Source: an archaeon (GTDB lineage Archaea > Iainarchaeota > Iainarchaeia > Iainarchaeales > 1-14-0-10-31-34). From it: DNA of 32,000 nucleotides. The notes under the pieces were generated by a model. That model did no database searches and was not told the DNA's origin. It saw nothing but the letters and a program-made list of their open reading frames with translations. The stretch spans positions 60,001-92,000 of the forward strand of contig JAJRVL010000004.1 of assembly GCA_024277355.1 (NCBI GenBank), read 5' to 3'. This document shows positions 28,802-29,866 of the stretch, one piece after another. The number at the start of each line of letters is the position of its first letter. Position 1 is the first letter of the stretch. The position numbers and the translations under genes are program-made.

Positions 28802-29848
28802 TTAAAGTTTTAGAATAAATTTGCCTTTCTTTTTTTTCTTTTTTGTTTCTTCTTTTTTTCCATTTGATTCTAATTCTTTTCTGTTTCTTTCAGTTATTTC
28901 TTTTTGTTTTTTCTGGCTTTTTCTAATAAAATATTGTTCAAAGAAATAAATAAAACCAAACTCTAAAATTAATATTATAAAAAAACCAATTAAACCAAAA
29001 AACCTGTTTGAACATAAAGCTAATAAAAAGAATATTACTGAAGCAATTAAACTTACAATAATTCCATAATCAGGTTTTAATACAAACATATCCCATAAAG
29101 CAATAGAATACCTGCTGAACTTTGAAAAAGCATAAGCTGAAGCAATTAATGAAAGCAATAAAATTATTGGAATAACTAAAGGATTAGTTTGTTCAGGTCC
29201 TCCAAAAAAGAAATCAGCAATCAAAAAAAGAAAAGAATACTCTGCTTGTTCTTTTGAAATAACTTTAAATGAATCAGTAAATACAACTGATTTAATTGAA
29301 GACATCACTTTATAAGTTCCTTTTTCTTCAGCTAAAAAACTAATGCTTCCTTCTGAATTAGTTATTAATTCAGTTATTTCTTTACTTGGAGAAATAACAG
29401 TTATTTTTTGTTCACTTACCGGTCCAAATAATGAATGATATAATACAACTTTCTGCATTGCTCCTTCAACAATTTCTTCCTGCATTACATCAAAAACAAA
29501 TTGTTCTTTTATTGTTTCATCACTTACAACAACAAACTGGTTTTTAGGGCATTTTTCATCAATTAATCCGTCTAAATCATCATCTAATTCATTATAACAT
29601 TTTTCAATTAAAAAAGAATACAAGTTAATTGAAACAATATTATTTGTTTTATTGTCTTCTTCAATATTTTCAGCTGAATCTAATTCAGCAAAAATACTTC
29701 CAGTTATTTCTTTTGAAAAATCAACAGTTAAAATTATTTTTTGTGTTTCTCCGCTTGCAAGATTAAACCCTGAAATTGTATTAATTACTTTTTTTGTGTC
29801 TGCTTCATAATAATATAATTCAACTGTAAAATCATTTGCATTTAACAC
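28802..29848 (-). CDS. C-terminal part of the giant CARDB surface protein: end of a CARDB repeat, Cys-flanked Asp-rich motif, prealbumin-like domain, ~4 TM helices, Lys-rich tail
   Basis: Same reading frame as ORF 29864..31951, separated from it only by TAA plus 5 sense codons. The ORF-track GTG start falls mid-domain. Contains LDSAENIEEDNKTNN (CARDB end), CYNELDDDLDGLIDEKC, TNSEGSISFLAEEKGTYKV, hydrophobic helices, and KKEETKKKKKKGKF. Confidence 0.7.
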   Translation of the reverse strand: MLNANDFTVELYYYEADTKKVINTISGFNLASGETQKIILTVDFSKEITGSIFAELDSAENIEEDNKTNNIVSINLYSFLIEKCYNELDDDLDGLIDEKCPKNQFVVVSDETIKEQFVFDVMQEEIVEGAMQKVVLYHSLFGPVSEQKITVISPSKEITELITNSEGSISFLAEEKGTYKVMSSIKSVVFTDSFKVISKEQAEYSFLFLIADFFFGGPEQTNPLVIPIILLLSLIASAYAFSKFSRYSIALWDMFVLKPDYGIIVSLIASVIFFLLALCSNRFFGLIGFFIILILEFGFIYFFEQYFIRKSQKKQKEITERNRKELESNGKKEETKKKKKKGKFILKL

Positions 29849-29863
29849 GCCTTTGTTTTCTAT

Positions 29864-29866
29864 TTA
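29864..29866 (-). other. in-frame TAA interrupting a CARDB repeat
   Basis: Read-through translation is ...GNSVLLEL*IENKGVLNANDFTVELYYYEAD... In intact sister repeats of the same protein this position holds K or V. Confidence 0.8.

What the first reader, a model, noticed from the sequence alone, without database searches (positions are those of the whole stretch)
29846..29866. One in-frame TAA splits a CARDB surface protein of more than 1,060 aa in the middle of a repeat
ORFs 29864..31951 and 28802..29848 share one frame. The stop ends at 29864, and the annotated GTG at 29848 is five whole codons later. Reading through gives ADLTVNYFKPVNNSLVELGNSVLLEL*IENKGVLNANDFTVELYYYEADTKKVINTISGFNLASGETQKIILTVDF. 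This aligns residue for residue with intact repeats in the same protein (GEEIPVTAVISNNGLSGISSDFVVSLLD; GSNVGLTAKIQNNGFVDSSSFFVIVRD; DAKVLLTVRNNGKFISPQVKVYFF). The stop sits where the sister repeats have K or V, so a single AAA->TAA change (plus-strand base 29866) would explain it. The downstream GTG start has no SD or promoter and would begin inside a beta-sandwich. The nonsense codon separates the extracellular repeats from the only membrane anchor. A truncated product would therefore be released rather than anchored, and it would be unanchored even if secreted. Possible explanations are a recent pseudogenisation, a population-variable (on/off) allele, an assembly or sequencing error, or low-level readthrough.
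Basis: seen in the sequence. Interest (0 to 1): 0.65.

Follow-up and report, generated by a model that had tools for sequence, protein, structure and literature searches.

The report
One-base stop in archaeal surface-protein gene
A large cell-surface protein gene of a small AT-rich archaeon is cut by one stop codon made by a single G-to-T change, but at least a dozen other genes in the same genome record, including essential ones, carry the same kind of lesion, so it is most likely a data or damage artefact or a very fresh mutation, not a feature of this gene.

Summary
One TAA (window 29866..29864, minus strand) is the only stop in a 1,230-codon frame. The frame encodes a signal peptide, CARDB repeats, a beta-sandwich module and three C-terminal membrane helices. 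The stop lies inside a CARDB domain. All nine distinct orthologues are single intact genes of 1,234-1,256 aa (one cut by a contig end) with Glu there. The five checked at DNA level read GAA, so the change was GAA->TAA, not AAA->TAA.

The stop is not specific to this gene. At least 13 genes on five contigs of this 1.13-Mb genome carry one in-frame stop inside a conserved domain. They include the only ProRS, deoxyhypusine synthase and NrdD. All nine with a resolvable ancestral codon are G:C->T:A transversions (P about 1e-5 to 2e-4), spread across GAA, GGA and TCA roughly in proportion to target size, as expected without selection. AspRS has a frameshift in an A7 run. TAA is the main terminator and no suppressor tRNA was found.

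Earlier agents in this scan noted the same pattern in other windows of this genome. My verdict is an unselected point lesion, either a record artefact or a very young mutation. It is ordinary and of low interest.

The parts
29864..29866 (-). In-frame TAA, codon 877 of the 1,230-codon frame. It derives from GAA (Glu) by one G->T change on the coding strand, which is C->A at plus-strand base 29866.
   Evidence: sequence and translation. GAA in all five congeners. Glu in all nine distinct orthologues.
29867..32000 (-). Upstream piece of the gene (876 codons). It runs past the window edge to the ATG at window coordinate 32494. It holds the signal peptide, several CARDB repeats and two acidic Asp-rich (DDDxDG-type) motifs.
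   Evidence: Pfam CARDB 130.8 bits in 3 stretches. The hydrophobic N-terminus spans residues 1-20.
29633..29944 (-). The CARDB domain that the stop interrupts (residues 851-954). The stop falls at about profile position 26-27 of 101.
   Evidence: read-through segment matches CARDB profile 2-99 at 31.5 bits; the downstream piece alone covers profile 27-99 only; in a low-confidence AF2 model the stop lies inside a beta-strand.
28802..29863 (-). Downstream piece (353 codons plus the terminal TAA). It holds the rest of the CARDB domain, a CYNELDDDLDGLIDEKC motif, a beta-sandwich module, three membrane helices and a Lys-rich tail. It is still fully open and no more diverged than the upstream half.
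   Evidence: (identity ratios 0.92 against 0.96).
29846..29848 (-). GTG that ORF callers use as the 'start' of the downstream piece. It is not a credible start.
   Evidence: One search lists it as the ORF start; the aligned residue is L, V, I, V or L in orthologues; the only AAAGG stretch is 1 nt upstream. A product starting here would begin inside the beta-sandwich and lack a signal peptide (inference).
29258..29500 (-). C-terminal extracellular beta-sandwich module (residues about 999-1079).
   Evidence: AF2 model: pLDDT 62-89 over this part. Foldseek finds only generic tandem Ig-like or macroglobulin-like sandwiches with TM-scores of 0.23-0.28.
28928..29182 (-). Three predicted membrane helices (residues about 1105-1125, 1143-1163 and 1167-1189). 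Apart from the signal peptide they are the only hydrophobic segments.
   Evidence: Kyte-Doolittle scan with a 19-residue window.

Best explanation
The gene is an ordinary single gene. It encodes a 1,230-aa secreted surface protein with CARDB repeats, anchored by three C-terminal membrane helices.

The TAA is a single G->T lesion (GAA->TAA) in this genome record. It is one hit of a genome-wide, apparently unselected burst of G:C->T:A changes, the signature of 8-oxoguanine damage. The burst also puts stops into housekeeping genes.

A cell carrying all these lesions at once would lack its only ProRS, its deoxyhypusine synthase and its NrdD, and AspRS is frameshifted as well. I therefore think the lesions most likely do not represent the working genes of the population. 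They would come from damaged or single template molecules, or from a low-depth consensus, in other words from a data artefact. I put this at roughly 55-60%.

The remainder of the probability goes mostly to a real but very young mutation that selection has not yet removed.

Shown: the lesion, its direction, the intact orthologues, and the genome-wide pattern and signature. Inferred: that it is an artefact and not a real allele.
For: Gene-level evidence:
- A single stop in a 1,230-codon frame, with CARDB domain continuity across it.
- All five congeners have GAA and open frames of 1,207-1,258 aa.
- Nine distinct orthologues all have Glu at the site.
- The downstream half shows no decay.

Genome-wide evidence:
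- 13 genes have a Pfam domain running across one in-frame stop. They are CARDB, RtcA, TctA, an aminotransferase, ferritin, PfkB, NrdD, a beta-eliminating lyase, AdoMetDC-DHS, M17 LAP, ProRS, a carbamoyltransferase and a NiFe hydrogenase.
- Their orthologues in congeners have no stops.
- Ancestral codons: six GAA->TAA, two GGA->TGA and one TCA->TAA. All nine resolvable cases are G:C->T:A.
- That class is only 29-38% of stop-creating changes here, giving P = 1.4e-5 to 1.7e-4. The GAA/GGA/TCA split matches target sizes of 49/25/18%.
- ProRS, NrdD and the DHS domain are single-copy in G000.
- AspRS has a frameshift in an A7 run.

Literature:
- Oxidative damage during library preparation is a documented source of C>A/G>T artefacts (PMC3616734; bioRxiv 10.1101/070334, title and abstract only).
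Against: - No second assembly of the species exists in the collections searched. Artefact against real allele is therefore untested.
- From my own knowledge, damage artefacts normally sit at low allele fraction and should lose a consensus at normal depth. A 526-kb contig argues against very poor coverage.
- A congener MAG (G001) has its own in-frame TAA in the orthologue of the neighbouring gene. Such stops are thus not unique to this record.
- No 8-oxoG glycosylase was recognised among the HhH-GPD hits. There is only Nth, plus a MagIII-like paralogue in some congeners, and the AGOG search was uninformative. The same spectrum could therefore arise in vivo.
- Five further stops have ambiguous ancestors. 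One may be CAA->TAA, a transition.
Confidence: 0.57

Rival explanations
1. It is a real, very recent nonsense mutation carried by most cells sampled. The lineage suffers many G:C->T:A mutations because of weak oxidative-damage repair and strong drift in a tiny symbiont-like genome, and selection has not yet purged them. The product would be an 876-aa secreted fragment that is not anchored and has a truncated last CARDB domain. The 353-codon tail would not be made.
For: - Same signature data as above.
- The genome is 28% GC, which fits strong GC->AT pressure.
- The HhH-GPD and NCBIfam searches recognised only Nth in G000 and no OGG or MutY.
- The downstream half is still open and undiverged, so the event is young.
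- All anchors lie downstream of the stop.
- Another MAG of the genus also has an in-frame TAA.
Against: A genome carrying all lesions together lacks its only ProRS, and AspRS, DHS and NrdD are also broken. Without suppression that should be lethal. The lesions show no avoidance of essential genes. Thirteen or more simultaneous majority nonsense alleles would be extraordinary.
Confidence: 0.22
2. The stops are real and tolerated because termination is leaky in this lineage, so a reduced amount of full-length anchored protein is still made. A speculative contributor is that the only aRF1 carries a homing-endonuclease intein exactly between the Q and S of its GGQ loop, so active release factor depends on protein splicing.
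For: - Essential single-copy genes carry the stops, yet every gene is otherwise perfectly intact.
- aRF1 in G000 is 908 aa, with an intein at GGQ|S flanked by Cys1 and VHN|S.
- The intein is also present in G001, the one congener where I saw an in-frame TAA, and in G004. It is absent from G002, G003 and G005.
- Belinky et al. 2021 (PMC7918605) argue that in-frame stops in prokaryotic genes are often read through.
Against: - No stop is conserved in any orthologue.
- No suppressor tRNA was found among 37 tRNAs.
- TAA is the main terminator, ending 471 of 699 long ORFs.
- Both TAA and TGA are involved and no shared sequence context is visible.
- The single mutational class points to how the stops arose, not to decoding.
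- G004 has the intein but showed no in-frame stop in about 45 kb of sampled loci.
- The intein link is pure inference.
Confidence: 0.1
3. It is a gene-specific adaptive event: a population-variable on/off allele, or selected loss of the anchor that turns the adhesin into a released protein.
For: Surface proteins are common targets of inactivating variation (general knowledge). The stop does separate the ectodomain from the anchor.
Against: - It is a substitution, not a repeat-tract or invertible switch.
- The same lesion type hits 12 or more unrelated genes, in proportion to target size.
- The stop is inside a beta-sandwich domain and not at a domain boundary.
- Every orthologue is intact.
Confidence: 0.04
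4. It is a genuine two-gene arrangement, or TAA is reassigned to a sense codon.
For: None beyond the open frame itself.
Against: - All orthologues are one gene with Glu at the site.
- The downstream piece lacks a conserved start and begins inside a domain.
- TAA ends 67% of long ORFs.
- No tRNA has anticodon UUA.
- Only about 1% of genes carry an in-frame stop.
Confidence: 0.01

Closest known systems
Internal-stop genes in draft or metagenome-assembled genomes (annotated as pseudogenes; consensus error or young nonsense mutation)
   Same: There is one in-frame stop in an otherwise intact, conserved gene. Orthologues are intact with a sense codon at the site. The downstream part is undecayed. 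Many genes in the same record are affected.
   Different: All resolvable lesions here belong to one substitution class, G:C->T:A. They hit single-copy essential genes, which is unusual for true pseudogenes.
Oxidative-damage (8-oxoG) C>A/G>T sequencing artefacts (Costello et al. 2013, PMC3616734; Chen et al., bioRxiv 10.1101/070334)
   Same: The substitution class is the same. The distribution appears random and unselected across targets.
   Different: From my own knowledge, those artefacts are described at low allele fraction in deep data. Here the changes sit in an assembled consensus. Read-orientation bias, their diagnostic mark, could not be tested.
In-frame stops under continued constraint, with proposed read-through (Belinky et al. 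2021, PMC7918605)
   Same: In-frame stops occur in genes that otherwise look constrained, including essential ones.
   Different: That paper's evidence is conservation of the stop across related genomes together with low dN/dS. Here no stop is shared with any relative, so there is no evidence of persistence.
CARDB-domain (PF07705) cell-surface proteins of archaea
   Same: Multiple CARDB beta-sandwich repeats follow a signal peptide. The orthologue family of 1,234-1,256 aa carries the same Pfam annotation, and one member is named 'CARDB domain-containing protein' at NCBI.
   Different: The protein is anchored by three C-terminal membrane helices with a Lys-rich tail. It carries Asp-rich (DDDxDG-type) motifs and an extra C-terminal sandwich module. 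Its function was not tested.

Membership tests
CARDB-domain surface protein (Pfam PF07705) | CARDB profile match above the gathering score | tested here: met
   130.8 bits against a cut-off of 22.7, in 3 stretches, for the upstream piece. The read-through of the split domain scores 31.5 bits.
CARDB-domain surface protein (Pfam PF07705) | Exported and cell-associated: a signal peptide plus a membrane anchor | tested here: inconclusive
   A hydrophobic N-terminus (residues 1-20) and three C-terminal hydrophobic helices were found by hydropathy scan only. No dedicated predictor or experiment was used.
Nonsense-interrupted single gene (internal stop) | One frame, one stop, and a protein domain continuous across the stop | tested here: met
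Nonsense-interrupted single gene (internal stop) | Orthologues are single co-linear genes with a sense codon at the site | tested here: met
   Five congeners have open frames of 1,207-1,258 aa, no stops and GAA at the site. Nine distinct orthologues have Glu.
Nonsense-interrupted single gene (internal stop) | The stop allele is present in the underlying reads at high fraction, so it is real and not a consensus error | not testable with these tools
No other assembly of the species was found.
Stop-codon reassignment (TAA as sense) | The codon is not used as a terminator and occurs often inside genes | tested here: not met
   TAA ends 471 of 699 long ORFs. Only about 1% of genes have an in-frame stop, one each in every case checked, and TGA is also involved.
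Stop-codon reassignment (TAA as sense) | A tRNA that reads the codon | tested here: not met
   An intron-aware ARAGORN run found 37 tRNAs, none with anticodon UUA, UCA or CUA.
Programmed or conserved read-through | The stop is conserved at the same position in related genomes | tested here: not met
   No orthologue of any of the affected genes has a stop.
Phase-variable (on/off) surface gene | A reversible switch element at the site, such as a simple repeat tract or invertible segment | tested here: not met
   The site reads TTA TAA ATA, a plain base substitution with no repeat tract.
8-oxoG-type damage artefact | The changes are G:C->T:A transversions | tested here: met
   Nine of nine resolvable lesions belong to this class, with P = 1e-5 to 2e-4.
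8-oxoG-type damage artefact | Read-orientation bias and low allele fraction in the reads | not testable with these tools

The most novel reading that the evidence does not exclude
The lesions are real and fixed. This small archaeon would then live with its only ProRS, its deoxyhypusine synthase, its NrdD, this surface protein and at least nine other genes each interrupted by a stop codon. That would require unusually leaky translation termination. A possible link is its release factor aRF1, which needs intein splicing inside the catalytic GGQ loop to become active. Under such leakiness nonsense changes would behave almost like missense changes.
Probability: 0.08. Interest if true: 0.7.

Novelty: already known. 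Interest (0 to 1): 0.22.

Why it matters
For this gene the practical message is annotation. It should be treated as one 1,230-aa anchored CARDB surface protein with an internal stop, not as two genes. No biology, such as a released adhesin or a switch, should be built on the split.

For the genome as a whole, the uniform G:C->T:A signature and the hits in essential genes are a quality flag. They affect every gene call in this record.

If reads showed the stops to be real, the case would become interesting. It would be a natural example of a cell tolerating many nonsense codons.

Tried and rejected

2. Other assemblies of the same species. Nothing closer than about 63% identity turned up apart from the window's own product. 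The searches were:
   - the protein search;
   - the exact DNA pattern with N at the variable base in genome contigs and metagenome contigs;
   - The search for related loci in metagenomes;
   - exact look-ups of the 876-aa product and of two neighbouring proteins.

3. Alternative genetic code. Rejected on stop usage and tRNAs.

4. A mutator explanation through loss of an 8-oxoG glycosylase.
   - G000 lacks a second HhH-GPD gene that G002-G004 have between an antiporter gene and AspRS.
   - That gene is closest to MagIII-type 3-methyladenine glycosylase, not to OGG.
   - The AGOG family search rang in no control genome and so says nothing.

5. Organism name. The genome-contig search returned only distant hits, and the cluster names say only 'archaeon'.

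6. A selection test on G000-specific G->T changes at conserved sites. I abandoned it before running it. At about 2e-4 lesions per G:C site, fewer than one extra event is expected in the orthologous sequence I hold, against 15-40% divergence.

7. Frameshift scans. They were noisy in this AT-rich genome. Only the AspRS case was confirmed against orthologues, so the ratio of frameshifts to nonsense changes is not established.

8. Control scan of 232 kb of congener loci. It found one coding-looking in-frame TAA, in G001. That is too little to compare rates.

9. AF2 model of the read-through C-terminus. Mean pLDDT was only 56 and Foldseek gave generic Ig-like sandwiches. It adds little.

Full report
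**The observation**

On the minus strand the sequence reads GTT TTA CTT GAA TTA TAA ATA GAA AAC AAA GGC GTG. The TAA is at window 29866..29864 and the GTG at 29848. Translating 31999..28802 gives 1,065 residues with this single internal stop.

The window is G000:C2:60001-92000. G000 is a 1.13-Mb genome of 11 contigs, 28% GC and 96% complete. In the whole contig the frame runs further upstream to an ATG at window coordinate 32494, preceded by AAGGA, which encodes MKNTIIILIFLMLFSSVSA... The full frame is 876 codons, the TAA, then 353 codons.

A 353-codon open continuation by chance is about 1e-14 in this composition (my calculation).

Pfam CARDB runs across the stop, covering profile positions 2-99 of 101 at 31.5 bits. 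The downstream piece alone begins at profile position 27 and falls below the cut-off.

**What the gene is**

- The upstream piece scores 130.8 bits for CARDB.
- Hydropathy shows a signal-peptide-like N-terminus. It also shows three helices at about residues 1105-1189, all downstream of the stop, followed by a Lys-rich tail.
- An AF2 model of the read-through C-terminal 261 residues has mean pLDDT 56. It places the stop inside a beta-strand and gives a better-defined C-terminal beta-sandwich with pLDDT 62-89.
- Foldseek finds only generic tandem Ig-like sandwiches.
- The gene is the last of a same-strand cluster of secreted-protein genes headed by a 283-aa gene. I did not test this.

**Orthologues**

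All five genomes of the same genus hold one co-linear orthologue. Identity is 55-63%, the open frames are 1,207-1,258 aa and none contains a stop. The large protein collection holds eight full-length relatives of 1,234-1,256 aa. The only truncated entry is the window's own 876-aa product.

After removing duplicates there are nine distinct orthologues, and all have Glu at the stop position. At DNA level the five congeners all read GAA.

Relative to the other orthologues, G000's downstream half is about as conserved as its upstream half (identity ratios 0.92 and 0.96). The stop is therefore young.

The residue aligned with the GTG 'start' is L, V or I in the orthologues. The only purine-rich stretch sits 1 nt from the GTG. 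I see no sign of an independent downstream gene.

**The stop is not specific to this gene**

I scanned the whole genome for single in-frame stops between long open segments and ran Pfam on the joined sequences with X at the stop. Thirteen genes have a domain that runs across one stop:

| Gene | Position in G000 | Stop |
|---|---|---|
| CARDB protein (this finding) | C2:89866 | TAA |
| RtcA | C11:58238 | TAA |
| TctA-family transporter | C2:524366 | TAA |
| Class I/II aminotransferase | C9:98793 | TAA |
| Ferritin-like protein | C2:58085 | TAA |
| PfkB kinase | C2:26042 | TAA |
| NrdD | C2:410824 | TAA |
| Beta-eliminating lyase | C3:23768 | TAA |
| AdoMetDC-deoxyhypusine synthase | C7:25669 | TGA |
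| M17 aminopeptidase | C6:4244 | TGA |
| Prolyl-tRNA synthetase | C2:246414 | TAA |
| Carbamoyltransferase | C2:271735 | TAA |
| NiFe hydrogenase large subunit | C9:102786 | TAA |

A giant surface protein (C10:112543) is also split relative to its orthologues. A 778-codon secreted protein (C4:20708) looks split as well.

In congeners, every orthologue found is free of stops. ProRS, NrdD and the DHS domain are single-copy in G000. AspRS is frameshifted in an A7 run where its orthologues stay in frame.

**The mutational signature**

Ancestral codons inferred from orthologues:

- GAA->TAA in the CARDB gene, TctA, ProRS, the lyase, ferritin and the carbamoyltransferase.
- GGA->TGA in DHS and the M17 aminopeptidase.
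- TCA->TAA in RtcA.

All nine resolvable cases are G:C->T:A transversions.

Five cases are ambiguous: PfkB (GAA or AAA), NrdD, the aminotransferase, the hydrogenase (GAC in orthologues) and the giant protein (CAA, AAA or GAA).

From this genome's codon usage, G:C->T:A makes up 29% of all stop-creating single changes. Under an AT-biased spectrum the share is 38%. Nine of nine then has P = 1.4e-5 to 1.7e-4.

Within the class, the expected shares are GAA 49%, GGA 25% and TCA 18%. The observed counts are 6, 2 and 1. The lesions look like random, unselected hits of one mutational process, at roughly 2e-4 per G:C site.

**Recoding and read-through**

- TAA ends 471 of 699 long ORFs.
- No tRNA with a stop-reading anticodon was found among 37.
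- No stop is conserved in any relative.

Reassignment is therefore excluded, and conserved programmed read-through is not supported.

Non-programmed leaky termination cannot be excluded. Belinky et al. 2021 argue it is frequent in prokaryotes (PMC7918605).

In passing I found that the only aRF1 carries a LAGLIDADG intein exactly between GGQ and S. The intein is also present in G001 and G004 but not in G002, G003 or G005. Earlier notes of this scan describe this intein allele in many DPANN genomes. Any link to tolerance of stop codons is speculation.

**Artefact or real mutation?**

This could not be settled.

Points favouring an artefact, or a consensus taken from single or damaged molecules:

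- A cell with all the lesions would lack essential single-copy enzymes.
- There is no sign of selection in which genes are hit.
- G:C->T:A is the classic oxidative-damage artefact (PMC3616734; bioRxiv 10.1101/070334).

Points against:

- Such artefacts are normally low-fraction and should not win a consensus (my own knowledge).
- A 526-kb contig suggests reasonable depth.
- The HhH-GPD and NCBIfam searches recognised only Nth, with no OGG or MutY. The gene missing from G000 is MagIII-like, not an OGG. The same spectrum could therefore arise in vivo.
- Another MAG of the genus (G001) has its own in-frame TAA, in the orthologue of the window's 28063-28800 gene.

My weights are about 57% a record-level artefact, 22% a real fresh mutation giving a truncated and released product, 10% real and read through, 4% a gene-specific adaptive variant, and 1% two genes or a different code. 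The remaining ~6% is left unassigned.

**Relation to earlier work in this scan**

After finding the genome-wide pattern myself, I looked up earlier notes. Other agents had already reported single in-frame TAA or TGA stops in other windows of this same genome. Their cases include ProRS, GluRS, NrdD, a GT-C enzyme, a giant protein and a secreted protein. Their conclusion was similar: fresh nonsense changes or a data error.

This report adds four things:

- the CARDB case with its orthologues;
- a formal test of the G:C->T:A signature;
- the target-size comparison;
- the AspRS frameshift.

**Verdict**

The finding is real in the record but ordinary: one hit of a genome-wide, unselected G->T lesion process. 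The gene should be read as a single 1,230-aa anchored CARDB surface protein.

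Noticed in passing
G000 contigs: C2:26042(-), C2:58085(-), C2:246414(+), C2:271735(+), C2:410824(-), C2:524366(+), C3:23768(-), C6:4244(+), C7:25669(+), C9:98793(-), C9:102786(+; L076), C11:58238(+); also C10:112543(+; L079) and C4:20708(+): At least twelve further genes carry a single in-frame stop inside a conserved domain (10 TAA, 2 TGA). 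They include the only ProRS, DHS and NrdD. All nine cases with a clear ancestral codon, this finding's CARDB stop among them, are G:C->T:A transversions.
   Followed up: yes
G000:C2:287090-287135 (minus strand), A7 run at C2:287102: The aspartyl-tRNA synthetase gene changes frame in a run of seven A's (...LDLRRKK / MFNNLLLRHK...). The orthologues of G002-G004 read straight through (LDLRREKMF...). This is a one-base homopolymer length difference in an essential gene.
   Followed up: partly
G000:C2:439994-442720 (+): The only aRF1 found is 908 aa because a LAGLIDADG-type intein (CLSPETL...GLIVHN) sits exactly between GGQ and SAHRFERLR. The NIKS and GGQ motifs are canonical. The same intein-sized insertion is present in G001 and G004 (910-912 aa frames) and absent in G002, G003 and G005 (408-419 aa).
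   Followed up: partly
L011 (G001:C63:886-5313), plus strand, stop at about locus position 1090: The G001 orthologue (42% identity) of the window's 245-aa basic protein (28063-28800) has its own in-frame TAA (GFGLKAA*KAERDQ). G000 has Ser (TCT) at that position. So at least one other MAG of the genus also carries an internal stop in a conserved gene.
   Followed up: partly
G000:C2:287497-287570, compared with L071-L073 (G004:C5, G002:C60, G003:C4): G002, G003 and G004 have a 243-253-aa HhH-GPD glycosylase gene between a cation antiporter gene and AspRS. It is closest to MagIII 3-methyladenine glycosylase (PDB 1pu6). In G000 the two flanking genes are only about 70 nt apart and the glycosylase gene is missing. 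G000 keeps a single HhH-GPD protein, Nth (C2:32340-32876).
   Followed up: partly
G000:C7:24586-25917 (+): S-adenosylmethionine decarboxylase (Pfam AdoMet_dc, residues 12-118) and deoxyhypusine synthase (residues 147-432) lie in one reading frame, an apparent fusion of two polyamine/hypusine-pathway enzymes. The G002 orthologue has a 460-aa open frame. The G005 frame is 344 aa.
   Followed up: no
window 32539 onward (G000:C2:92539-96796, minus strand): Directly upstream on the same strand lie genes for two secreted proteins (407 and 697 aa, each with a signal-peptide-like N-terminus) and a 283-aa protein. The CARDB gene follows the 407-aa gene after a 44-nt gap, so it may be the last gene of an operon.
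   Followed up: no
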